DNA of 64,000 nucleotides from Narcine bancroftii (taxonomy: Eukaryota): positions 331,018,001 through 331,082,000 of the forward strand of contig NC_091471.1 in NCBI RefSeq assembly GCF_036971445.1. The letters run 5' to 3'. The notes beneath the pieces are model-generated. The model ran no database searches. It worked only from the letters and a program-made list of their open reading frames with translations, and was not told the DNA's origin. The first letter of the stretch is position 1, and every line of letters starts with the position of its first letter. This document shows, piece by piece, positions 6,850 to 35,599 of the stretch. Both the position numbers and the translations under genes were made by a program.

Positions 6850-7064
6850 GTTAGTGTGAGCTTTTACCCCCCCCTCCCCCTGGGGTACCATCTCCTCCTT
6901 TCCCCTCCCCCTGGGATCCCATCCCTTCCCTTCCCCTGCGGACCTATCCCCTGCATTCTCCCCTACCCCCGGAGTCCCATCCCCTCCGTTTTGCTCCCCT
7001 CCCCCCCTCTCGGCCACCCCCTCCCACCTCGGTTGCCCTCGCCCCCACGGCTGACTCCCCCCCC

Positions 7065-8090
7065 CCCTCGGCCGGCCCCCCCCCTCGGCCGCCCCCCCCT
7101 CCCCCTCGGCCGCCCCCCTCCCCCTCGGCCGCCTCCCTCCCCCTCGGCCGCCCCCCTCCCCCTCGGCCGCCCCCCTCCCCCTCGGCCGCCCCCCTCCCCC
7201 TCGGCCGCCCCCCTCCCCCTCGGCCGCCCCCCCTCCCCCTCGGCCGCCCCCCTCCCCCTCGGCCGCCCCCCTCCCCCTCGGCCGCCCCCCCTCCCCCTCG
7301 GCCGCCCCCCTCCCCCTCGGCCGCCCCCCTCCCCCTCGGCCGCCCCCCTCCCCCCTCGGCCGCCCCCCTCCCCCTCGGCCGCCCCCTCCCCCCTCGGCCG
7401 CCCCCCTCCCCCCTCGGCCGCCCCCCTCCCCCTCGGCCGCCCCCCCTCCCCCCTCGGCCGCCCCCCTCCCCCCTCGGCCGCCCCCCTCGGCCGCCCCCTC
7501 CCCCCTCGGCCGCCCCCCCTCCCCCTCGGCCGCCCCCCTCCCCCTCGGCCGCCCCCCTCCCCCTCGGCCGCCCCCCTCCCCCTCGGCCGCCCCCCTCCCC
7601 CTCGGCCGCCCCCCTCGGCCGCCCCCCTCCCCCTCGGCCGCCCCCCCCCCTCGGCCGCCGCCCCCCTCCCCCTCGGCCGCCGCCCCCCTCCCCCTCGGCC
7701 GCCGCCCCCCTCCCCCCTCGGCCGCCGCCCCCCTCCCCCTCGGCCGCCGCCCCCCTCCCCCTCGGCCGCCGCCCCCCTCCCCCTCGGCCGCCGCCCCCCT
7801 CCCCCTCGGCCCGCCGCCCCCCCTCCCCCTCGGCCGCCGCCCCCCTCCCCCTCGGCCGCCGCCCCCCCTCCCCCTCGGCCGCCGCCCCCCTCCCCCTCGG
7901 CCGCCGCCCCCCTCCCCCTCGGCCGCCGCCCCCCTCCCCCTCGGCCGCCGCCCCCCTCCCCCTCGGCCGCCGCCCCCCCTCCCCCGGCCACCGCCCCCCT
8001 CCCCCTCGGCCACCGCCCCCCTCCCCCTCGGCCACCGCCCCCCTCCCCCTCGGCCACCGCCCCCCTGCCCCTCGGCCACCGCCCCCCTCC
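7065..8090. repeat. Extremely GC-rich 19-22 bp minisatellite (CTCGGCCGCC[GCC]CCCCTCCCC)n in an OTUD5 intron
   Basis: Directly visible; dozens of units; source of the spurious Gly/Arg and Pro ORFs. Confidence 0.97.
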
Positions 8091-8162
8091 CGTCGCCCAT
8101 CCCTTCCTCGTCGCCCCCCTCTTCCCGTCGTCCCCTCACCCCCTATGGTGTGTACCCTATAG

Positions 8163-18905: not shown

Positions 18906-19571
18906 GTGCTGTACCAGTTCAAGATCTTCACCACCGCCATCTTCTCAGTCTTGATGCTGAGGAAGTCCCTGAGCCGGCTGCAGTGGGTGTCGCTGGTGCT
19001 CCTGTTTGTGGGCATTGCCATCGTTCAGGTGACGCAAGAAGGCAGTACTGGGCAGGACCGAGTCCCCGGCCAGAACTACCTGGTTGGGCTGATTGCTGTG
19101 CTGGTCTCCTGCGTGTCCTCTGGCTTCGCTGGCGTCTACTTCGAGCGCATCCTGAAGGGCTCATCAGCCTCCATCTGGCTGCGGAATGTTCAGTTGGGGA
19201 TCTTTGGGACCTTGCTAGGGTTGGGGGCCATGTTCTCCAAGGAAGGCCCAGCCATTATGGAGAAGGGCTTCTTCTTCGCCTACACACCCATGGTTTGGAC
19301 TGTGGTCTTCAACCAGGCCCTGGGAGGGCTGCTGGTGGCCATGGTGGTCAAGTACGCTGATAACATCCTGAAGGGCTTCGCCGCCTCCGTCTCCATCATC
19401 GTCTCCACCGTGGCCTCTGTCCAGCTCTTTGGCTTCCACACCGACCTGTCCTTCACACTGGGAGCCGGCCTTGTCATCTCCGCCGTCTACATGTACAGTC
19501 TGCCCAGGACCAACCCTGACGCCAGCCCCGGTCAGATGTCCAGCCTGGGTGGCACCAAGTTAGTGGGCTAG
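18906..19571 (+). CDS. SLC35A2: SLC35A2 large exon [18 protein letters not shown]...[13 protein letters not shown]...[12 protein letters not shown]...TKLVG*
   Basis: gccag| acceptor; nucleotide-sugar transporter transmembrane motifs; stop TAG at 19569-19571; AATAAA at 20781. Confidence 0.95.
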
Positions 19572-20712
19572 TGACAGCTCGCCAATCCACTCGGTGGCTC
19601 GGTTCCCCCCTTTCCAGGCCTCCCCTCCCTCTCTCTCTTCATCCCTCTCTCCCCCACTCCTTCATCCCCTCTCTCCCTCCCTATCTTCATCCCTCCCCCT
19701 GCATCCCCCTCCTCCTCCTCCATTTCCTTTCCCCCACCTATTCACCCTTCCCCTCCCTGCTACATCCTCTAGCCCACCCCATCCCGTTGACATGAGGCTG
19801 ATGTTCAGACCATGAGGGATTTGTTGGGGGAATCGCTGGGATGTCTGTCACAGCAGGAGGATGAATCACCTGTGGCTGGCTGCAGTGAAAGGCTGGTGTT
19901 TTGAGGGAGCTTTTGGGAGTGGGACGGGTCCCTCACACACTGTCTCACACAGGATGGGTCCCACACACACATTGACCCTCACTAGGGGATGGGTCCCGCA
20001 CACACACTGACCCTCACTGGGAGACAGTTCCCACACACACTGACCCTCACTGGGGGAGGGGTCCCACACACACTGGCCCATCCTGCAGCCCTGACCTGCA
20101 GTGTCGGCCCCCTCTACCCTCTGTGTATTCATTCCTGTGAGGCAGCTGGAACCCTTCCACACCAGGTTGAACATTAATTGTTTGTTTGTGCGTTCAGGAT
20201 GTTGACTGGTCTCCCCACCCACCCCCCCCCCCCCCCAGTAATAAGGGCAGGGTTGGCCACACTTTGTGATCTTTAGTGAATGTGAACAGATGGACCTCCG
20301 TGTTCTGCTGCTGGAGTGAGGACAGCGAGACTGGTGGAGTGCAGGGGCATCCTGCTTCCCCCCACTGCCAGCCCCAACGGAGGACCCGAGGGCATTCCTG
20401 CACCCCCTGTGAGCAAGTCGGGGGAGGCTGGTGGGGGGAGAAGGTTGCGGCTGGTGTGGGTTGGAGGCTCAGGGGCTGGGACTCGGAGCAGACGTGATGT
20501 GGTAGTGGGTAGTAAATAAGCTGGTGGTGGGTCGCAGTGGATAGAATTGTTCCCTCAGCTCCAAGGTGGTACGGACTGAGGGAATGGGTTTGTTTAGAAA
20601 TTTTTGGGGGTAAATATAAAGAAGATAATTTTTTTTAATATATTTTTTTGATATTTCCTTTTAGCAACATGAAGCAGTCATTGATTGAGACTATATATAA
20701 ATATATATACAT

Positions 20713-20746
<34 letters not shown>

Positions 20747-23700
20747 GTCTATAAAGTCGCTGTACGCATTGATTTTGCACAATAAAATTCTCATCTTTTC
20801 TCTGCTTCCTGTGTAGTGTTTGAGGCCTCGTTGGGTCAAACAAAAGAACCCTCCCCCAATCCTTTTGTTGGGGCACCCTCGTCCAGTCCACCCCCGCACC
20901 CTAGCTTCAAAGCCCCTCTGAAACCAGTGAGCATGGGGATTCTCTCTCATGGAGCTGCTGGAAGCAGTGGGTAGAGAGAGAGAGCAGGGACTGACTCACC
21001 TCTCTCCTACCCACCCCACAAGGAGGAGAAGGAGGGAGCGCTTGCACCCTGATGCCTTGGCGGGGAGATAGAGTGCTGAGGCAGGAGTTTTGGTGCCCGT
21101 TTCAAAGGTGGTGGCTTTACCCACAATCCTGGGTGGCCCAGAAATCCCTGCATCCCACAGCCTGCTCCACGGCAGTGGGGCTATATGAGGAATCTGTATG
21201 TTCCCTCTAAGGTTGCATGTCTCCCCCCCCCCCAACCCATGGGTGCTCCCGTTTCCTCCCACCCCCTAACAATGTGTATGTCAGGGAATTCATTCAGACG
21301 GACCACACGGTGACGAGCATGTGCCACCCAATTCACCTCCAATCCCACTGGGGAGAGGGGGAAACCCCATGCAGACACGGGCGAAAACCTTGGGCGCTGG
21401 GCTGCAGGCGATGGAATCTGATCAGGAGGATTGGTGGGCAGATAGGAACAATGAGGGGAGGTAAGAACAACAGGAGCAGGAGTGGGCCATCGAGCCCTGC
21501 TCCACCATTCAATGAGATCATGGCTGATCTGATGATCATCTCCACTCACCTGCCTTTTTCACATATCCTTTAATTCCCTGATGATGTAAAAATCTATCAA
21601 CCTTGTTTTATATATATTTACTAAGGCTGCCTCCACTGCTTCAATAGTGAATTTCACAGATTCGCCACCCTCTGGGAAAAGCATCTCTGTCCTAAATCTA
21701 CTCCCCTGTATCTTGAGGTGATGTCCCCTCGTTCTGGTCTCCCCCACCAATGGGAACAACTTACCCACCTCTATCTGATCCACACCTTTCATCATTTTAT
21801 ATGTTTCTGTAAGATCCCTCTCATTCTCGTAAATTCCAGCGAATCCAGTCCCAGACGTCTCAATCTCTCCTCATAGGTCAACCCCCTCATCCCTGGAATC
21901 CTCTGTATCACCTCCAAAGCCAGAACATCCTTCAAGTCAGGAGACCAGACTGCACCCAGTTCTCCTCACCAGGACCTTGTACAGTTGCAACTAAACCTCC
22001 CAGCTCCTAAACTTAAACTCTGCAGCAATGAAGGCCAACGTCCCATTTGCCTTCTCGACAGCCTGCTGCACCGGCATTCCCGTCCTTCTGCCTGACAGCA
22101 GGCTGCAATCGCTTCTCATTTAAATAATAATTCGATCTTCCATTCTTCCTTCCAAAGTGGATAGGAGGGAAAGAGAGAGGACCTGATTGGTGTGGATCCC
22201 ATGGGCTGGTTTAACTTCCTGATGTACCTGAGGCACCTTGTGGGTTCCCCAGCTGGGCCTCTGTGGTCATGGGAAGCATTTGGGTGAGTCGGTGGTGGAT
22301 GGGAAGGCTTGGCTTCACTGGGCGAGTGAGAATGAGTTAACACAGCTGCACGAAACCTCATCCCTGGCCACATGTTGTACAATTCCGGTCTCATGAAAGG
22401 AAAGGGTTTGCCCAGTTGGAAGGTGAGAGTTGGACACGCAGGTTCTTTGGAGCGTCAGGGGGCCCTGAGAGGTTTGTGCATTTGTGAGAGGAATTGATTG
22501 GACAGACATGCTCCTTCCCCCTCAGGATGAAAGTGTCACACACGAGGGCAGGCAGTGGGGCTGGGTGGGAGAATGGATTGATTAAATGGTGGGGCGGACT
22601 CAATGGGCAGAATAGCTTATTTCCGCTCCTATATCTCATGGTCTCACAGTCTTTTTGGAGAGAAGGGTCTGTCCCTGTGCTGCTCTCTTCGAGGGGTACA
22701 GTGGCTGTGAGGGGGACAATTCTGATTGAAGGTGGCAGGCTGAGTGGCGCACACCTGTCACAACCTGTTCCCCACCCACTGTTGAGGGTGGCGCTGAACT
22801 GGCCTTCTCTGAAGGGAAGGCACGGTGTAAGTGAGGCTGGGCAATGGGCTGGCACCTCTGAGCTTGGTGACCTCTCCCTGGTGGGAAGGCTGTTCAATAG
22901 TGTCGGTGTTACCCACAATCGTCGGTGTTCCAGAATCCCCTCTATTTCACCCCTATCCTGGGGAGTTGAGTAGTCATTGGCTTGAGCCTGTGTCTAAGCC
23001 CTTGATGCCAGCACTAGCTGTGCGGCTCCTGAACTCTGCAGGAAGACCGGATTCTGTGGAGGAACGGTGGGACCTTTGGGCTCAGTCCATGGACCCCTCA
23101 AAGTTGCTGCACCAGTTGGTCAGGTGTGTTGGCCTTCATTAGTCACAGTATTGAGTTCAAGAGGGGTGAGATCATGTCACAGCTCAAAGAAACTCTGGTT
23201 AAACCACATAGAGTAATCAAGATTATTTTACTGTCATGTGATAGAACAGAAAATGTGATATTACATGGAATTTCCTTCAGTCTACTGTAAGGCAGACAAA
23301 GATTTGCCATCAGCAGAAATTATCCAGAGCCCTTTACAGCCAGAGAAAGAGAAGTAAAAAAGAGTCCCCTCCGAGTCACCGAGCGTCCGTGGATTCACCT
23401 CCAGCGCTCCCGCAGCCTCCTGCCACACAGCCAAACCATCAGCATCCCAAGCTCCAGGTATACACCTCTGACACAATCAAGAAGCCTCCGGCACCCTCTC
23501 ACATCCTGCTACTAATACCTGGTACTCCTTCAGACCAGTCTCAAGCAGTCTCCGGCAGTCTGCTGCCCGGTGTGAGTCCCTTGACTGCAGTCGCCTGCAT
23601 CCTATGTGGTTTCCTCATCTTGAGTCACCAACAGCCCCGACTCCTGTGTGTTCTTCATCCTCAGAGCCCCTCACTGGTCTGACGCCATGGTCACCATCCC

Positions 23701-24127
23701 ATGGGTCATCTTCCCTGCTTGCCCTTCTCAGAGAGGGGTGTGGTCTCCCCGTTTTCTGGTGCCCCGCTTCCCCGGAGTCTGCAGCCCCTTGAGGCTGCTG
23801 CCGATCACAGGCGCCGCCGCCTTGGGCCTAGATCCTTCGGGATTTAAAATAAAATCACCATCGGCTTCTGAAACGGGCTATCCACAGCAGGCAGCAGTTG
23901 GACAGGGCGATTTGACCCTGCGGTGTCTCTGCTCCCCACTCTCCCGGGGTCCACACTGCAGTTACAGCAGTGCTCCCTGATCGGGTCAGATATGTGTATC
24001 TGGAGCTCGGGCTGCCATTGGTTTGGACCAGACTCTGCATGGCTGTGGTTGCGGGGGCGCTGGAGGCAAATCCACGGACACACGGGGTCTCTGGTGGGGA
24101 GGGAACTCTCTTCTGTTTCTCGCTCTC

Positions 24128-24397
24128 TGTTGTGATTCTCCTCCTTTATAATCGCTGAGATTGTTTATGTCAAGAAAAAGCTCGTATTAAAATTGAGTTG
24201 AGTTTTCCACGGTTTATTAAACCTGATATCAGTTAGTATATTATTACAACTTTGTTATACGGTGCTAACCTATAAAATAGTCAATAAAAGTTTCAGTCCA
24301 ATTCAAGTCCTTCCATCTTCTCAAAACAAACATGCAGAGAGCCAGCTATAACCGTGAAGCTGGCTGTTACTAGGAGGCAATATGAAATGTTTCAACA
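24128..24397 (-). mobile_element. Possible solo LTR
   Basis: TGTTG...CAACA inverted termini; AT-rich interior with polyA-like (tttatt) and TATA-like motifs; TSD imperfect (tctc/tcta). Confidence 0.4.
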
Positions 24398-25299
24398 TCT
24401 ACTAGCTGTTTGCAGCTTACAGTTCATGCTACCCCTTTACTCTGGGTGTAAGGGGTGCTGGGCGATTTCACTGATGGTGAAGCTGCCTGCCTCACGGTAG
24501 GCAAAAGGACATTTCTTTTAGGGGAGGCATCGGGTAATTTGTTTTTACACCGAAAGTGCCTGGAATGCCTTGCTGGGATGGTGGTGGAGGGTGGAACGTT
24601 TAAGAGACTCTTAGACAGGCGCTTGGATGGAAGAAAGATTGTGGGTGTGAGGTGGGGAAGGATGAGAATTTGTGGGTCGGCACAACATCGTGGGCCGAAA
24701 GGTGGAGTTCTCAGTTCTCACCAACTTCGGCTAATGTCATGGGCTGTTTAAAACCTGCAAGGTGCCGACGGCAGATAGACCCTGCAGGGCAGCACCATGT
24801 CTCTGCTCCCCGCTCAGAAGAAGTTACTTTAATGCAGGTGCTGCTACTGGTGCAGACCCAGGGAGAGCAGGGAGCAGAGACACAGCACTGCCCCGCAGGA
24901 TCCAACCGCCCAGTCTTCTCCATACAGGCTTTATACGGTCCGTTAATGGGTCTGACGGTGGTTTATTTTAAAACCCCGTGACCATGGGGTTTGGGGCCAA
25001 GATGGCGGCACCTGTGATCAGCGGACTAATGTGGTGGGGGGGGGGGGAAGGACAGCCCCTTAGGGAGGTAATGGAGAAAGGGGTGGAGGGAGGGGGAGGA
25101 GATGGCTTGTTAATCTCTCTCTTTCTCTTTCCCTGCGCAGAATCACCTCCAAGGAGAAGGGATCGTGAGGCTCCGACACGGGAATCGGTGGGACTCTGGA
25201 CCCTGGAGGCAACTAGTGTGCCCTGGGGTTCCTCCTCCACACCTCCCTGTCTCAGGGTTCAGCCATCACTCTTTACAACTCGCTGTGCTTTTAAAGTAG

Positions 25300-26470
25300 A
25301 GCACGACAGGACAGGCCCTTCAGCCTGCAATGTTGTCCTTTTAAAAACGACTAACCCTCCCTACCCTGTAACCCTCTATTTTTCTTCCATCCGTGTCTAA
25401 GAGTCTCTTTAAATGCCCCCAGTGTTTCAGCCTCCTCCATCACCCCTGGTGAGGCATTCCAGGCCCCCACAACTCCTAAACATACCCCTAAACTCCCCTC
25501 CCTTCACTTTGTACCGACATCCTCTGATGTTTGCTATTCCTGCTCGGAGAAACAGGCACTGGCTGTCCACCTTATCTATGCCTCTCAGAATCTTGTAGAT
25601 TAAGTTTCCTCTCATCCTTCTTTGCTCCAGAGCTTCCTCATCCTTCCTGTAATGAGATGACCACATGTACTCCAAGTGGGGTCTCACTAGATATTTGTAG
25701 AGCTGCAACATGACTCTCTGCTCCTGAACTCAATGCCCTGACTAATGAAACCCACCATCCCATAGGCCTCCTTAACTATCCTGTCAACCTGTGTGGTGAC
25801 CTTGAGGGATCACAAGATCCTGGAGCAAAATTTGGAGCAGAATTCAGCCCATCAAGTCTGCCCCACCACTCTAATCATAAGCTGATCCATCCTCCCACTC
25901 AGCTCCATTCCCCGGCCTTCTCCCTGTAACCCTTGATGCCCTGACTGATCAAATACCCAACTGATCAAATTCACCCAACAACCTTGCTTCCACTGTCGCC
26001 CGGGGCAACAAGTTCACAGACTCACCACCCTCTGGCTGAAGAAATTTTTACACATCTCTTAAATTGATGCCCTTTTACCCTGAAGTTGTGGCCTCTTGTC
26101 CCAGACACCCCTACCATGGGAAACATCCTTACCACATCTACTCTGTCCAGGCCTTTCAACATTCGAAATGCCTTGATGAGGTCCCCCTCATCCTTCTGTC
26201 CTCCCAACGAGTACTGTCCAAGAGCCAATAAATGTTCCTCATTTGCTAACCCTTTCATTCCTGCTATCATTCTGGTAAATCTCTGAACTGTCTCCAATGT
26301 CACCATGTCTCTTCTCAAATACGGTGCCCAGAACTGTACACAGTTCTCCACGTGAGGTCTCACCAGTGCTATACAGAGTCTCAACATCGCATCCCTGCTC
26401 TTGCACGCTGTCCCTCTGGAAAACAACGCCAATGTTGCATTCGCCTTCACCGCCACCGACACAACTTGGA
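25300..26470 (-). mobile_element. CR1 LINE 3' fragments
   Basis: LYKYLVRPHLEY; LVRPHVENCVQFWAPY..FTRMIAGMKGL. Confidence 0.8.
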
Positions 26471-26822
26471 GGTCCAGCAGAGACCAAACGCTGATCGGAA
26501 GAACCACATGTGATAAACTTCAGACGTTTGAGAGCCAGAAGTCATGAACAAATATAACATAATGTTTTTACTCTTTGTGCACATTCTGTTACAGAATGTT
26601 TCTATAAATATTAAACACTGCATGTAAGTGATAATATTTATTCCTGTGTGTAGTTTTAAAACTGCTCCTTTCTGGTAGTTTCAATGCCACAAAACACCGG
26701 ACTCATTCAAGGCAATAAATCCCAACCCTGACTCTGACCCCAACCCCAACCCTGATCCTGATCCTGATCCTGACTCCGAACCTGACCCTGACTGATCCTG
26801 ATTCTGACCCTAACTCTGATCC

Positions 26823-29257
26823 TTTTTTAAATATTTTTTTATTTTTCACACTATGAACCATATCAACCAAAATATGTACAAATGTTTCTCATTAAATTTA
26901 CACAGTGGTCTTTTCTCCCCTTTTTTTCCCCTTTCCCTCCCTCCCCTATATCCACCTCCCTCCAAAACCCATAAATATTCAACATATAGAATATCATAAA
27001 ACAATATCTTCACACAAAAGAAAATAAACAAGAAAAATGCGTCATCTATTTATTCCACACTGAATCTAGTCGTTTTGTCTTATCATTTTCATTCTCATTT
27101 TAGGGGATGGAGGTCCATCTCTCTCTGATATGTTCCATGTATGGTTCCCAAATTTGTTCAAACAATATGACTTTATTTTTTAAATTATATGTTATTTTTT
27201 CCACTGGAATACATTTATTCATTTCCATGTACCATTGCTGTATTCTCAGGCTCTCTTCCATTTTCCAAGTTGACATTATACATTTTTTGCTATCGCTAAG
27301 GCTATCTAATGAATTTTTTTGTGCTTTATCCAATTTCTTTACTTCTTATGTAACTTAAAAGAAATATCTCTGGATTTTTTGATATGTTATTTTTTGTAAT
27401 TTTATTTAATATCTGATTTAGTTCTTCCCAAAACGTATTTATTTTCATACATGCCCAAGTTGCATGTAATGTTGTTCCCATTTCCTTCTTACAGCGAAAA
27501 CATCTATCCGATAATGTGTTTGTTGTATTCTTCATAGTTCCAGAACATAACTTTTCCCAAACTTCATTTTTTATCTTTATGTTTAAATCCTTTTCCCACT
27601 TCTGTCTAGGTTTATAGTTTATTTCATTGTTTTCCTTATCTTGCAGCTTAATGTAAATATTCGTTATAAATCTTTTAATTAATCATTGTGTCTGTAATTT
27701 CAAAGTTGCTTCCTTCAGGTAATCTCAGTCTGTTTCCCAATTTATCCTTTAAATAAGCTTTCAGTTGATGATATGCAAACATTGTACCTTGAGTTATTCC
27801 ATATTTGACCTTCAACTATTCAAATGTTAATAAATTATTTCCCAAAAAAAACAATTTTCTATTATTTTGATTCCTTTTCTCTCCCATTCTCTAAAGGAAA
27901 GGTTATCTATTGTAAAAGGGATTAGTGGATTTTGCTTCAATAATAATTTTGGTATTTGGTCATTCGTTTTATTTTCTTTTTAAGTGGATCAAATGATGCA
28001 GTACTGATGAGCTTTTATATTGCCCCAGCTTTTCATCCCACTTATAAACTATATGTTCCAGTACCTTCTCCCCTATTTTATCTAGTTCTATCTTAGTCCA
28101 GTCTGGTTTTTCCCTTGTCTGGTAAAAATCTGATAAATACCTTAAATGTGCGGCTCTAATAATTTCTAGAGTTTGGTAACTGCAAACCACCTTGGTTATA
28201 CCTCTCTGTTAATTTATCTAACGCTACCCTCGGTTTCCTCCCTTTCCACAAGAATTTCCTTATGCGTCTGCAATCTTCAAAAAAATATCCTGCATAAACT
28301 TTTGATTCTCCTCATTAGGCACATATATATTGAGCAAATTCCAAAATTCTGAGTATATCTGACACTTTATCATTACATACCTCCCTGTTGGATCTATTAT
28401 TTCCTCCTCTATTTTGATTGGTACATTTTTGTTGACTAGTATAGCTACACCTCAAGCTTTTGAATTATTGGATGCTGCCGCTACGTGTTCTACCCAGTCT
28501 CTCTTTAGTTTGTTATGTTCCACTTCAATTTTGGAATTTGCTCAATATATATGCACATAACAAGGAGGATCAAAAGTTTATGCAGGATATTTTTTTGAAG
28601 ATTGTAGACACACAAGGAAATACATTGATAGGAGGGGATTTTAACCTTAATTTGGACCTAATTTTGGATAAAACTGGACAAAAGACAAGCAAAAAGAATA
28701 AAGTAGCCAAATTTATGGTTAAATCAATGCAGGAAATGAAACATAGATATATGGAGGAGGCAACACCCAAGAGAGAAGGAATATTCATATTATTCGAGTA
28801 GGCACAAAACATACTCAAGGATTGATATGTTTTTGTTGTCAGCCTATATTCAAGGGAGAGTTAGGAAAACTGAGTATAAAGCTAGACTACTATCTGATCA
28901 TTCACCCCTGTTATTAGCAATAGAACTGGAGGACATCCCACCAAGAAGCATTTCCTGCACAAATGCTATATCTATTTTTTCTTTCAATAAATTTAATAGC
29001 CTCTTCCTTTTAATTTGGTTATGTATTCCATTAATGTTTAGTCATAGAGTTCAACATGGCCATCTTGTATCTTGCATACACCTCTGTCCACTTCTTTGCC
29101 ACCTCCATCCCCCTTTTCCCCATTTTCATCTCTTAGTTCCCTTACTAAACTCAATGTCTGACAACACATTTAAAACACAAAATACCCCAACAGTTCCCAC
29201 ACCCAATAGTACCTTAACCCCAAATGGTCCCCCACCTCTGAGTTGCCCACCCTTACT
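26823..29257 (-). mobile_element. Rearranged L1 (same family): minus-strand 3' end, large ORF2 deletion, inverted APE segment at ~28525-28948
   Basis: T-rich tail at the left; reverse-complement ORF2 C-terminus (DRCFRCKKEMGTTLHATW); plus-strand GGDFN/SDHSP block between minus-strand pieces; flanked by (CCTGAY)n repeat. Confidence 0.85.
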
Positions 29258-30404
29258 CTGACTGATCCTGACCCTGATCCTGACTCTAACTGATCCGACT
29301 TTGATTCTGATCCTGATCCTGACTCTGATCCTGATTCTGACCCCGACCCTGACTGATCCTGACTCTGACTTTGATCCTGATCTGTTGTCAGGTCTGTACC
29401 AATTAGCTGTCAGGTGTTGACATGTAGGGATCGCTCGATGCTTTGACTTCACCAACTTCATTACAAAGCTCGGATAGGAGGGCGATCAGGGTGACGGGAA
29501 CTCAGACCTCAGAGGGGAGGGTGGTCAGGTGACAGGAGCTCAGATAGAAGGCAGTCGGGATGATGGGCGCTCCGGAAGAAGGGTGGCCTGGATCACACTT
29601 ACACTTCAATTCCATCGCCCACAACACAGCCACGCATGCCACAATCACGCGATCACAGGCCTCACCCACCTCACTCTGTCTCAGCCACACATTAGATGTC
29701 AAAAAGCCGTGTGTGGCTCAGCAGCCGCAATTTGGCCATCCTGCTTTAGGATGTCCTGCACAAGGACACCCAAGTCCCTTTGCACCTCAGGTTCGAATTT
29801 TTTTCCCCATCTAAATGACATGCATGTGCACCCTGTCTGTGTTTTTTCACACCGTCCCAGCAACGTGGAGACTCTGCTCTCTCTCTTGGACCCCCTCTCC
29901 ACACCATGGCACAACTTTCAGGATTGGAGAGATACAGAGAATTTCTTCAGCCAGAGGCAGTGAATCTGTGGAACTTTTTGGCACAGGTGGTTGTGGAGGC
30001 TGGGACAATGGGTGTATCTAAGGCAGAGAATGACGGATTCCTGATTAGCCAGGGCATCAATGGTTATGGGGAGAAGGCCAGGCAATGGGGCCGAATGGGA
30101 GAATGGATCAGCTCATGATTGAATGGTACAGTAGATTCGATGGGCTGAATGGCCTATTTCTGCTCCTGTGTCTTATCCTCTAATTGCGTATTCCTGCTTG
30201 GGCAATGTGTAAGGAATGAAATGCTGACTGAAAGACTGAGGAGAGGGGGAGGAGGTGGGGTCAAGAGTTGGCTCCGCAGTGTGAATGCCTGCACACGAAC
30301 AAAGAGGGGTTCTGTTTCCGCTGCCACGGCTGGGAGTATGTCAGAGACGAGGTTTGGCAGGGTCACTCCCAGCAGAGCCAGAAGGAAAACGCCGAGGGAG
30401 GAGC

Positions 30405-31330
30405 AGTGAGGGAGCTCCACACTGTGGGAACGGTGGTGAGGGAGCTCCATGCCTTGGGATGGGTAGTGAGGAGGGAGCTCCACTCCATGGGAGGGGTGGT
30501 GAAGGAGATCCTTGCTGTGGGGGAGGGGCAGTGAGGAGGGAGCTCTGCCTTCAGTGATATCACATGGCTGTGGTGACATCATTCCCCTCTGCAATGGCAT
30601 CACACACCCCGGTGATGTCACATGTAATGTAACAGAGGTCCAGAGTCTCTGTGCCTACACATTCTGCCCAGGACACTGTCCACACAGGACGCTTGTGATT
30701 GGTTAGTGCTCTCCATCCCTCGGCATGGGCTCCGGACAGTCCCCGGGACAGGGGTCCCGGCCCAGTGGCCTCCATCTCAGTCTGCTGAGCGACAAGCAAG
30801 GTGGTAACCACGGGATCCGGCCACGGGAGGGATGGTGAGGGAGCTCCACACCATGGGAGGAGTGGTGATGGAAATCCACACCATGGGAGGGGTGGTGAGG
30901 GAGCTCTGCACTGTGGGAGGGGTAGTGAGGGAGCTCAACACTATGGGAGGGGTGGTGAGGGAGCTCTGGACTGTGGGAAGGGTTAGTGAGGGAGCTACAG
31001 ACTGTGGGAGGGGTGGTGAGGGAGCTACAGACTGTGGGAGGGGTGGTGAGGGAGCTACAGACTGTGGGAGGGGTGGTGAGGGAGCTCTGCACCATGGAAG
31101 GGGCAGTGAGGGAGCTACAGACTGTGGGAGTGGTGGTGAGGAGGATGCACACCATGGGTGGGGCGGTGACGGAGCTCTGCACCATGGAAGGGGCGGTGAG
31201 GGAGCTACAGGCTGTGGGAGGGGTGGTGAGGAAGATGCATACCATGGGTGGGGGGGGGGGTGAGCGAGCTCTGTGCCGTGGAGAGGCGGTGAGGGAACCT
31301 CGCCATGGGAGGAGCGGTGACGGAGCTCCC
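30405..31330. repeat. 30-bp minisatellite GGGAGCTACAGACTGTGGGAGGGGTGGTGA, interrupted at ~30550-30825 by unique sequence
   Basis: Tandem units; the 10-codon period yields spurious ORFs. Confidence 0.9.
30725..30800 (+). CDS. Putative exon 1 of an uncharacterised gene, MGSGQSPGQGSRPSGLHLSLLSDKQ(G)
   Basis: Kozak-like ggcATGG with an in-frame upstream TAG (30704); MGxxxS myristoylation pattern; phase-1 donors after 30800 (AAG|GTGGTA) or 30803 (GTG|GTAACC) both fit the acceptor at 33126. Confidence 0.5.
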
Positions 31331-31744
31331 TCTGTTGGACAGTAGTCTCCATCCCCTCGGTGTATGATTCCATCACCTAGAATCACCTCCATTCCCTCAG
31401 TGGTACTCCTGTACAGCAGAACCACATGGTCCCAACCGTCATTCTCTGCATCGCCCACCACCCACCCCTGGGGAATCTCTTAACCCTCACTGCCAACACA
31501 CCTCCTGGCCACTGTTGACTTTCCTGGCCACCATGGACTTTACTGCCCTCCCAGACACAGTGGACATTCCCAGCCACCGTGAATGTTCCTGGCCATTGTG
31601 GACATTATTGCCCGCCTGGTGGTCTGGGCTCACTGCCCCTTCCCAGCTGCCCGTCCGTGGGGAACCACACTCCACCTCTGTGGTCAGGTGCACAGAGAGA
31701 TAACCACCACTTGGTGTCACACAGCAGATTCACCCAACTCGCTG

Positions 31745-33030
31745 AGCAGAGAAGATTCACCAGGATGTGGCTGGGACTTCAGGAATTGAGTTCTGGGTCT
31801 CCTGATGAGGAAGGATGGACTGACATCAGAGGTGGGGCAGAGGAGGTTCATCAGGTTGATTCCAGGGAAGAGGGGGTTGGTCTATGAGGAGAGATTGAGG
31901 CATCTGGGACTGCACTCGCTGGAATTTAGAAGAATGAGGGGATCTGATAGAAACGTATAAAATGATGAAAGTCATGGATCAGATAGAGGTGGATAAGTTG
32001 TTCCCAGTGGTGGAGGAGACCAAAATGAGGGGACATCCCCTCAAGATCCAGGGGAGTAGATTTAGGACGGAAATACAGAACAACACAGCCCAGGAAAGGG
32101 ATGTACCAACCCATATATTCCTTAAAAAAAAACTATACCCTCCCTGCCCCTTAACCCTCTATTTTTCTCCCATCCATGTCTAAGAGTCTCTTAAATGCCC
32201 TCAATGTTCCAGCCTCCACCACCACACCTGGCGAGGCATTCCAGGCCCCCACAACTCGTGTGTAAAAAACTTAGCTCAAAACTTCCCTCCCTTCACTTTG
32301 TACAGACATCCTCTGGTGTTTGCTGATCCCACCCTGGGAAATAGGTGCTGGCCATCCACCCTATCTCTGCCTCTCAGAATCTTGTCGACCTCTATTAAGT
32401 CTCCTCTTATCCTTCGACAGTCCAGAGAGAAAATTTCCTGCTCTGCTAACCTTGCCTCATGAGACTTGTTTCCGAATCCAGGCAACATCCTGGTCAATCT
32501 CCTCTGCCCTCTCTCCAGAGCTTCCACATCCTTCCTGTAATGAGGTGACCAGAACTGAACACAATCCTCCAAGTGAGGTCTCATCAGAGATTTGTAGAAC
32601 TGCAACGTCACCTCTCGACTCTTGAACTCAATCCCCCAACTAATGAAGTCCAGCGTCCCATAGGCCTTCTTAACTATCCTATCAACCTGCGCAGCGACCT
32701 TGAGGGATGTATGGACTTGAACCCCAAGGCCCCTCTGTTCATCCTCACAGTTAAGTAACTGACTATTAATCCTGTTCTCAGCCTTCTGGTTTGTCCTCCC
32801 AAAATGCATCACCTCACACTGATCCGGATGGAACTCCATCTCCCAACTCTGCATACTGTCCATATCCTGTTGTTAACTATGACAAGTTTCAACTCCTCCA
32901 CCCTTCGTGTCATCTGCAAACTTACTGACTCAATCTTCCGCCTCTTCATCCAGGTCATTTATAAAAATCACAAGGAGCAGGGGGGAGTCCCAGAATAGAT
33001 CCTTGCGACACTTCACTAGTCACTAAGCCG
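31745..33030. mobile_element. CR1 LINE fragments in the intron of the uncharacterised gene
   Basis: ORF 32276-32863 (-): W.MEFHPDQCEVMHFG, FYKSLMRPHLEDCVQFWSPHYRKD. Confidence 0.85.
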
Positions 33031-33125
33031 CAAGTTTTGTCAGTGGGAGTAGGCCACAGGCTTGGTCAGCAGGGCTAGGCCATGGGCTTTGACTAACTGT
33101 AACGCCTCACCCTCCCTTCCCCCAG

Positions 33126-34636
33126 GTCTGTGGGTGGCAGCAGCTGCCAGCTCCCAGGAGCAGGCCACAAGTGAGGTCCCGACCCCGGCGATGGGGCAGG
33201 CGGATTTTCCCGCCGTACTGGTGACCAGGCTGCACCCCCACCACCCATCGCCCAGGGCAGGCGACCCACAGCAGGCTCCCACAGCAACATCCGCCATCAC
33301 TCTGCAGACAGGCCAGCGCTGCAAAGCCACTGGGGCAAGGGAGATCCACGTGACCTTTGCCCCAGGCTCATCTGAGCGTCACGGGCTGGATAAAGAAGCT
33401 GAGCGACCATTAGGGCCTGGCCCGATGACCCTGAGGCCGCGCATCTCATGCCTGAGGAAGGCTGTGGAGGGCAGCCAGGTCCCCTTCACCTCCTGGGGCC
33501 AGGCCGTACCTCGGGGTCCAACAGATCACTCATCTCGTCGCCCTGGCTCCAGGGACACCTCAGCACCTTTCAGCAAACACTGGATCCTGGCTAACTCCAA
33601 CCAGGCCCAGGATCCTGGTCCACACCCTCTGGCTTGCCCTTGCTCAGCAGCGGCCTATCACAAGGACCTCTCCAATGGCCACTCCCCTGATGTTACGCTG
33701 GTCTGCCTCATCGATGGGCACAGGGATTTGCTGGCAGACACCCAAGATGGCAGCATCAGTGACCTCACGGTGGACATCCAAGATGGTGGCATCAGTGACC
33801 TCACAGTTGACACACAAGATGGTGGCATCAGTGACCTGATAGATTCCCAAGCTGATGGCATCAGTGATCTAGTGAATGACCAAGGTGGTGGCTCCAGTGA
33901 CACCATGGCTGAAGACCAGGATGGTGACTGCAGCAACCTTCTGGTGGACAGCCAGGATGCCACCTTTAGTGAACCGATGGCGGGCTCCCTGGATAATGAG
34001 TGCAGAGATGGCAGCTATCTGGTAGACATTCAAGATGGCAGCATCTTAGATACTCAAGATGGCAGGTTCCAGGACACTCAAAATGGCAGCATCTTAGACA
34101 CTGAAGATGGCAGATTCTTGAACACTCAAGTTGACAGCTGCCTGGTGGACATTCAAGAAGGCAGCTTCCAGGAGACTCAAGATGGCAGCATCTTTGACAC
34201 TCAAGATGGCAGCTTCCTGGTGGACATTCAAGATGGTGGCTTCCTGGACATTCAAGATGGTGGCTTGAGACAGGGATTAACTGACATCCAAGGCCCAAAG
34301 GAGGAGATGTGGGGACGGCTGGACTTTGACAAGCCCGGCAACACCTCCAAGCTGCTCAGTGTCGCAGAGGCCATCACGGGGCGAAGCGACCAGCCTTCAA
34401 CCCAGAAGGGGATGGGGGTGGAGCTTGACCTGGGCTCAGCCCCAGCATTGGGGCCCAGGGCTCGGACAGATGACCTGCAGGATGCCTACACTGAGATGCA
34501 CCAGGACATGTTCTACAAGGCCTTCCTGTTCTACAGGTTCATGAGACTTGGAGATCCTCTCTGCAGAGCCAGAAGGCAGCATCAGCAGAGACAGCACCCT
34601 GAGGTGCTGGGCTCACCCAGGGGTGCAGCACCGTAG
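33126..34636 (+). CDS. Terminal exon of an uncharacterised, largely disordered protein with acidic DxQDG repeats
   Basis: 1.5 kb stop-free frame in non-TE sequence; branch point GACTAAC (33091) plus polypyrimidine tract plus CAG; repeat length changes preserve frame; AATAAA about 42 nt after the stop (34678). Confidence 0.75.
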
Positions 34637-35599
34637 CGACCAGCTCTGTGGCAGGCCATTTGTTTCCTGACTGTACCAATAAAGTATTTTTGTTACTGCT
34701 TCCATTCCTCTCCTGGTGTCACACACCTGCTGTTGCCACCCTAGTTGGCCTTTCCCCAACTCCATGGAGTCTGGAGGCCCAGGGAGGGGGGCTTCACAGC
34801 CTGAGTCTCCTCAACCACATGTCCCCTTCGATCTCCTGCCCAGGAATGTCCTCTCCAAGTCCCCAACTGCAACCATGTTCACCTTCCATTCCCCTCCCCT
34901 TCTATCTCTCTCTCACATTCTCTCTCCCCCCTCCCTCCTTCACCTGATCTCCTGCCCTCCTTCCCTCAATCACTGCCACCCAGGAGGTTCCTCCAACCCT
35001 CACCAATCCTTCCTTGGGTGCCCCCCGAACCCAGTCCTCACTTCCTCCCTGACCATCCATCTTCCCCATCTCATCACCTTGCCTCAAACCACTTCTCCGT
35101 AAAACACAGGAGCAGAAATAGGCCATTCAGCCCATTGAGTCTGCCCCATTTCCCACTCAGCCCCACTGCCTGGCTTTCTCTCCACAACCTTTGATGCCCT
35201 GACTAATCAAGAATCCATCAATCTCTTCCTGAAACGAACACCAGCATCGTGTTTACCTTCTCAACCTGCAAGTTTACCCGTGTCATTGCCAAATCAGAGC
35301 CCAATCCTGACCCTTGACCTGGCTCGTGACCTGGACTCACTGTGACTTCTGACCTTGACCTGGCTCGGGTCCCGAGTGTAACCCAGACCATGACCCCGAC
35401 CGTGACTCCTGTCCACGACCAGACTGTGACCTTGACCTCCGAGGGTGACCCTTGGGCTCAGACCGCAGTGGATCCCTGACTGTAGAAGTGAATGAGCCCC
35501 CTACTCCAACACCAACAGTCAGCAACAATCACGTCCCAGACGCTGACCCATCACGGCAAATCGTGTCCCAGACACAACCCAGCACGGCCTATCACGTCC

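What the first reader, a model, noticed from the sequence alone, without database searches (positions are those of the whole stretch)
30725..34683. Unrecognised two-exon gene: putative N-myristoylated ~528-aa protein between SLC35A2 and BCAP31
Seen: the 524-aa ORF at 33062 is really a terminal exon. It has a textbook branch point (GACTAAC, 33091), a polypyrimidine tract, CAG| at 33125 (phase 1) and AATAAA at 34678. About 2.4 kb upstream, an island of unique sequence inside a minisatellite holds ggcATGG with an in-frame upstream stop, encodes MGSGQSPGQGSRPSGLHLSLLSDKQ and ends in phase-1 donors. Joining 76 + 1511 nt gives 1587 nt, an intact 528-aa CDS. Established: Met-Gly-x-x-x-Ser is the N-myristoyltransferase consensus. 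Inference: a membrane-tethered, disordered, acidic scaffold with a short hydrophobic/basic C-terminal helix (LQDAYTEMHQDMFYKAFLFYRFMRLG) that may be a docking motif. I do not recognise it as any human Xp11/Xq28 neighbour gene, so it may be lineage-restricted or highly diverged.
Basis: partly seen in the sequence, partly recalled or inferred. Interest (0 to 1): 0.8.

Follow-up and report, generated by a model that had tools for sequence, protein, structure and literature searches.

The report
Shark-and-ray germ-cell disordered scaffold gene
This is a real, spliced gene, so far found only in sharks and rays, whose acidic and predicted floppy protein ends in one strongly conserved helix and likely serves as a docking scaffold in developing sperm or egg cells; the proposed fatty-acid membrane anchor is doubtful.

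Summary
The gene is real. One transcript contig joins 30800 to 33126 exactly as predicted, and the 528-aa product equals an unnamed RefSeq model of Narcine bancroftii. It is single-copy and belongs to a family found in 11 ray and shark species and nowhere else in the searches run; no usable Pfam, PDB or Atlas match. AlphaFold gives disorder except one helix, residues 473-500, the most conserved block (66% ray-versus-shark identity). The run holding the transcript also holds deep contigs of the meiotic gene SYCP3, and three CRE-like palindromes lie upstream: a hint of gonad expression from one run. Myristoylation is not family-wide and is weak in Narcine (Pro at 7). Relatives carry an extra segment with LxxLL boxes, an RVxF-type PP1 motif and, in 7 of 11, Phe exactly 20 residues before a terminal Pro, like a FEM1B degron; Narcine has lost or eroded these. 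Best reading: a lineage-restricted germ-cell adaptor working through short motifs. Partners are untested.

The parts
30554..30621 (+). three CpG-free CRE-like palindromes (RTGAYRTCAY), 104-171 nt before the ATG; possible promoter elements
   Evidence: the only 3 matches in 64 kb (0.96 expected, 6 of 100 shuffles reach 3); pattern chosen after seeing the sites
30718..30800 (+). exon 1 (coding 30725-30800, 25 codons + 1 nt); true 5' end not shown
   Evidence: matches Pristis residues 1-35 at 49%
30801..33125 (+). intron, 2325 nt, GT..AG, phase 1; holds minisatellite and dispersed repeats; no remnant of the family's middle segment found
33091..33125 (+). branch point GACTAAC, pyrimidine tract and acceptor
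33126..34636 (+). coding part of exon 2, residues 26-528 and stop
33347..33358 (+). HVTF (residues 100-103), at the place of RVTF in five relatives; candidate PP1 docking motif, non-canonical here
33737..34260 (+). acidic D-x-Q-D-G repeats, periods 24-99 nt, all multiples of three
34466..34549 (+). conserved C-terminal helix, residues 473-500
34595..34636 (+). His-Pro where most relatives stop, an out-of-frame TGA at 34600-34602, then 11 extra residues again ending in Pro
34678..34683 (+). AATAAA, candidate polyadenylation signal; the X1 contig continues to 35133

Best explanation
This is a transcribed, spliced, single-copy gene of a family found so far only in sharks and rays, and its predicted disordered, acidic protein likely works in meiotic or post-meiotic germ cells as an adaptor that docks on a folded partner through its conserved C-terminal helix. 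Shown: gene structure, transcript, family, block conservation. Predicted: disorder and the helix. Inferred: (1) gonad expression; (2) the helix (11 of its 27 residues invariant) folds on an unknown partner; (3) the basic K..RVTF segment recruits protein phosphatase 1, so the protein would bring PP1 to that partner across a long acidic spacer of variable length; (4) in the ancestral form the Phe(-20)...Pro(-1) end would time its destruction through CRL2-FEM1B. The Narcine copy is a derived, eroded version: no middle segment, no LxxLL, HVTF for RVTF, an 11-residue extension, but an intact helix, which marks the helix as the indispensable part.
For: Junction in a transcript contig. Single copy. 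Orthologues in 5 rays and 6 sharks; their tree groups the rays together (support 0.99) and gives Narcine the longest branch, 0.94. Ray-versus-shark identity 0.66 in residues 475-501 against 0.21-0.27 in flanking spacers, 0.44 around VTF. AlphaFold: 421 of 528 residues under pLDDT 50, helix 473-500 near 90; same picture in Heterodontus. No transmembrane stretch (highest 19-residue hydropathy 0.64-1.44), net charge -29 to -79. Run X1 holds SYCP3 exon contigs, depth 7199 at one exon, a locus picked independently of how the run was found. Three CpG-free CRE-like sites upstream; such sites are reported as over-represented in testis promoters (PMC2853129, passages). RVxF regex met in 5 of 11, VTF core in 9 of 11; RVxF is in nearly 90% of validated PP1 regulators (PMC13545437, passages). 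Phe at -20 with terminal Pro in 7 of 11 although the linker is only 27% identical, fitting the FEM1B degron description (PMC11053023, PMC10567573, passages).
Against: All expression data are one run of one study, contigs only, RNA by guess, perhaps the data behind the RefSeq model; contig depth is a poor measure of expression, and X3 also holds a spliced SYCP3 contig (depth 3.6), so SYCP3 presence alone is not gonad-specific. The CRE-like pattern was chosen after the fact and 6 of 100 shuffles reach the same count. RVxF is a four-letter motif, absent in Stegostoma and Rhincodon and non-canonical in 4 of 5 rays including Narcine. The -20/Pro spacing fails in 4 of 11 (Narcine -32; two Chiloscyllium end 3 residues early without Pro; the Rhincodon model ends differently). 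The helix is far more conserved than a degron needs, so its main partner is unknown. All relatives are automatic gene models with uncertain N-termini.
Confidence: 0.5

Rival explanations
1. A MARCKS-like, N-myristoylated membrane scaffold; the lipid anchor is the key feature.
For: Narcine and Pristis start MGSGQS, matching G-x-x-x-S/T (PMC5492501, passages); 4 of 5 ray models start Met-Gly-Ser.
Against: Pro follows Ser6 in both (a recalled PROSITE rule excludes this; the papers seen give only S6 and K7 as favoured, so the exclusion itself comes from no call). Hypanus and Mobula birostris have Pro at 5 and 6. Heterodontus starts MTSGPP. No Cys or basic cluster near the N-terminus; net charge -36.
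Confidence: 0.15
2. An acidic sink or chaperone for basic sperm nuclear proteins during chromatin exchange, with the helix as targeting element.
For: Acidic repeats kept in all 11 (D+E 13-18%); gonad hint. Analogy with acidic histone chaperones is recalled.
Against: Repeat number and spacer length vary (e.g. 321-467 residues); no chaperone fold or family match; no localisation data.
Confidence: 0.12
3. A highly diverged orthologue of a gene also present in chimaeras and bony vertebrates, missed because only short motifs are conserved.
For: No skate or white-shark member was returned although these lie inside the clade that has the gene, so the searches miss members; two orthologues sit on contigs of only 70-111 kb, so the region assembles badly. 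The exhaustive profile had 3 sequences; the 7-sequence helix profile was word-seeded.
Against: No true hit outside elasmobranchs among 37 profile hits (7 family members, and 6 of the other 30 checked by name or sequence were unrelated repeats), 11 helix hits, Pfam, PDB or Atlas.
Confidence: 0.13
4. A nuclear-receptor co-regulator working through LxxLL boxes.
For: 8 of 11 members have 1-3 LxxLL, several at one aligned site (L-R-x-L-L-x-x-D); predicted short helices there in Heterodontus.
Against: The Narcine protein has none and lacks the segment; LxxLL is common in amphipathic helices.
Confidence: 0.07

Closest known systems
RefSeq 'uncharacterized' models XP_069785378.1 (Narcine), LOC127567101 (Pristis), LOC132380616 (Hypanus), LOC134338984 (Mobula), LOC122542353 (Chiloscyllium), LOC125450062 (Stegostoma), XP_067880349.1, XP_072350887.1
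   Same: The first is this very protein; the others are its orthologues.
FEM1B Psi-Pro/C-degron substrates (CCDC89, PSMB5) and BEX pseudosubstrates
   Same: Aromatic residue in a helix about 20 residues before a terminal Pro (7 of 11 members).
   Different: No sequence relation found; the helix is much more conserved than a degron; Narcine has the Phe at -32.
Disordered PP1-targeting subunits with an RVxF motif
   Same: Basic stretch then RVTF in a predicted disordered region (5 of 11 canonical).
   Different: No homology to a known subunit; motif eroded in Narcine, lost in two sharks; binding untested.
Myristoylated disordered scaffolds (MARCKS, BASP1, AKAP12; recalled)
   Same: Met-Gly start, acidic, disordered.
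   Different: Pro7, no basic effector domain, Gly2 not family-wide.

Membership tests
N-myristoylated proteins | Gly at position 2 and Ser/Thr at position 6 | tested here: met
   Narcine MGSGQS
N-myristoylated proteins | Favourable residue 7 (Lys favoured; Pro excluded by a recalled PROSITE rule) | tested here: not met
   Pro7; S6K7 in 10.1101/2021.06.22.449375, one passage; Pro rule recalled
N-myristoylated proteins | Signal conserved in orthologues | tested here: inconclusive
   MG in 4 of 5 rays, Ser6 in 2; Heterodontus MT; five other shark models have unaligned or truncated starts
N-myristoylated proteins | Covalent myristate on Gly2 | not testable with these tools
   needs labelling or mass spectrometry
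PP1 regulatory subunits | [RK]-x(0,1)-[VI]-{P}-[FW] motif (regex recalled) | tested here: inconclusive
   5 of 11 members match; Narcine HVTF does not
PP1 regulatory subunits | Motif in a disordered region | tested here: met
   pLDDT under 50 around it
PP1 regulatory subunits | Binds PP1c | not testable with these tools
   needs pull-down
FEM1B Psi-Pro/C-degron | C-terminal Pro | tested here: met
   8 of 11 members including Narcine
FEM1B Psi-Pro/C-degron | Aromatic or His about 20 residues upstream | tested here: inconclusive
   Phe at -20 in 7 of 11; in Narcine Phe at -32, His at -18
FEM1B Psi-Pro/C-degron | FEM1B-dependent turnover | not testable with these tools
   needs reporter assay or ITC
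LxxLL nuclear-receptor co-regulators | LxxLL box | tested here: not met
   none in Narcine; 8 of 11 relatives have one or more
Transposon-derived ORF | Multi-copy or TE domain | tested here: not met
   single copy; no Pfam TE family
Taxonomically restricted gene family | No homologue outside the clade | tested here: inconclusive
   none found but the searches also miss expected in-clade species; no outgroup genome could be searched

The most novel reading that the evidence does not exclude
An elasmobranch-only germ-cell regulator, kept since sharks and rays split, that couples PP1 recruitment to a FEM1B-type C-terminal degron or acts as a FEM1B pseudosubstrate, a convergent counterpart of the mammalian BEX proteins, with the electric-ray copy stripped down to the helix.
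Probability: 0.12. Interest if true: 0.7.

Novelty: new member of a known kind. Interest (0 to 1): 0.4.

Why it matters
It defines an unnamed gene family shared by sharks and rays with one nearly invariant 27-residue helix, a good bait for finding a partner, and a candidate marker of germ-cell stages in a group whose gametogenesis is little studied. The Narcine copy is a natural deletion series showing which motifs are dispensable. It is, however, an already annotated model of a common kind (lineage-restricted, likely gonad-expressed, disordered), and no mechanism is shown.

Tried and rejected
Runs X2 and X3 gave no cover of exon 2, and X2 next to none of the SYCP3 exons; contigs show presence, not absence, so this is not counted as evidence. 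No listed holder is on record as RNA. Complex prediction of residues 474-528 with the last exon of the genome's FEM1B (human 169-627; the Pro pocket lies outside it): no answer, score 0.00 in both runs, alignment not used; neither for nor against. Search for the middle segment in 30801-33125 and 19500-30724: scores within the shuffle range, and no hit in the genome with a stricter search. Pfam: only FlgE D1 at E 0.29 and DUF7486 on the repeats of one member, rejected as low-complexity. PDB profile: V-ATPase d at E 0.27, rejected. Foldseek: nothing under E 4.9. Atlas: no usable hit by features, twice. Pristis residues 1-150 found only itself. Repeat-only hits in the genome and library (10 of 37 looked up) rejected; P0061 (E 0.51) rejected. 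Literature: six accession terms, 0 papers; species, testis, PP1 and protamine searches (listings only) name no such gene; supplements were not read and could list it. PMC5869587 (passages) gave nothing. Earlier findings: nothing relevant. In one search the Pristis helix row and two of its spacer values come from a wrong regex anchor and were ignored. dN/dS could not be run: no orthologous DNA was available.
Full report
Observation. The long frame is not chance: 502 codons against a maximum of 272 in 1000 shuffles, 13-29 stops in the other five frames, and 10 of 10 repeat cores in one codon phase. Of three public runs listed, X1 holds a 2091-nt contig identical to the window that skips exactly 30801-33125, GT..AG. 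The genome search finds one copy; other matches are repeat-only at 32-42%. The protein equals RefSeq XP_069785378.1 of Narcine bancroftii, 'uncharacterized'; that model may rest on the same reads and is not independent. Gene order on + is OTUD5, SLC35A2-type transporter, this gene, BCAP31-type gene.

Family. Searches returned orthologues in Pristis, Hypanus, two Mobula, Scyliorhinus, Heterodontus, two Chiloscyllium, Stegostoma and Rhincodon, 11 species with Narcine. A tree on 335 columns groups the five rays (0.99) and gives Narcine the longest branch. Nothing credible came from outside elasmobranchs, Pfam, PDB, Foldseek or the Atlas. This is not proof of restriction: no skate or white shark was returned either, two members lie on small scaffolds, and no outgroup genome could be searched.

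Anatomy. From N to C the family has: a short first exon; a middle segment of about 110-120 aa with predicted short helices and LxxLL boxes, skipped in Hypanus isoform X2 (110 aa) and without detectable remnant in Narcine; a hydrophobic LAML-x-x-G-x-PT-x-L patch; a basic stretch ending in VTF (RVTF in 5 of 11, HVTF or NVTF in 4, lost in 2); a KRR-x-SCL[RK] patch; acidic D-x-Q-D-G repeats of variable number; in the six sharks an FYTP motif after the acidic tract; and the terminal helix D-V-Y-x-E-x-x-x-D-M-F-x-K-A-F-L-F-x-K-F-M-x-x-G, with 11 residues invariant in all 11 and 66% ray-versus-shark identity against 21-27% in the spacers beside it. AlphaFold on an 11-sequence alignment gives 421 of 528 residues under pLDDT 50 and one confident helix, 473-500. 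There is no transmembrane stretch. In 7 of 11 members the last Phe lies exactly 20 residues before a terminal Pro. Narcine reads His-Pro at that place over an out-of-frame TGA (34600-34602) and continues 11 residues to another Pro; the transcript contig agrees with the assembly there. A one-base slip at the old stop is the simplest reading (inference).

Myristoylation. G2 and S6 are present (consensus in PMC5492501, passages), but residue 7 is Pro where Lys is favoured (10.1101/2021.06.22.449375, one passage); that Pro is excluded is my recall of PROSITE and was not found. Two other rays have Pro at 5-6, Heterodontus starts Met-Thr, and there is no second membrane signal. It may occur in Narcine, but it is unlikely to be what the family is conserved for.

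Where it acts. I laid the same runs on the genome's one Cor1-family locus, confirmed as SYCP3. X1 holds exon contigs at depth 7199; X3 holds a spliced contig at 3.6. Contig depth is a poor measure of expression and this is one run of one study, so it is a hint of a meiotic gonad, not a demonstration; testis and ovary are not told apart. The only three RTGAYRTCAY palindromes of the window lie 104-171 nt before the ATG (pattern post hoc). [quoted passage not shown]

Mechanism. The best reading is a germ-cell adaptor: the helix folds on a partner, the RVTF segment recruits PP1 (RVxF in nearly 90% of PP1 regulators, PMC13545437, passages), the acidic repeats form a spacer, and the Phe(-20)/Pro(-1) end fits the bipartite FEM1B degron (PMC11053023 and PMC10567573, passages; BEX proteins are described there as pseudosubstrates). 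All binding steps are inferred from motifs. Against: RVxF and the degron spacing both fail in Narcine itself and in some sharks, so only the helix is universal, and its partner is unknown. Rivals are a myristoyl-anchored scaffold (0.15), a diverged pan-vertebrate gene (0.13), an acidic chaperone for sperm nuclear proteins (0.12) and an LxxLL co-regulator (0.07).

Verdict. Observation confirmed, interpretation partly supported. A real, already annotated but undescribed elasmobranch gene family of a familiar kind. No paper naming it was found; supplements were not read. Interest 0.4.

Noticed in passing
   Followed up: partly
P0005, P0007, P0008, P0009, P0058, P0060: All six sharks have SED[FL]-x-x-x-x-FYTP-x-x-x-PSD after the acidic tract, absent in rays; it resembles a phospho-FFAT motif for ER VAP proteins (recalled).
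   Followed up: no
window 3486-52250: Order OTUD5, SLC35A2, this gene, BCAP31, all on +, joins genes of human Xp11.23 and Xq28 (human order recalled); whether PIM2 lies between OTUD5 and SLC35A2 was not tested.
   Followed up: partly
P0003/P0004, P0059: The Hypanus and Mobula hypostoma orthologues lie on contigs of 38.8 and 37.5 Mb, smaller than the 45-73 Mb X1 and X2 of these species (10.1101/2025.02.26.637739, section 18 and passages), so the gene is probably autosomal there.
   Followed up: partly
P0005 residues 1-190: The Scyliorhinus model has a long N-terminal part unlike all others, resembling a LINE ORF1 piece (recalled; no Pfam support): probably a gene-model fusion.
   Followed up: no
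L014:1642-3036 (G000 C29): FEM1B here has an intron near human residue 169; I recall the human gene having one long last exon from about residue 83.
   Followed up: no
window 6997-8091: A 19-20 bp minisatellite of about 51 copies, 90% G+C and CpG-rich, inside an OTUD5 intron.
   Followed up: no
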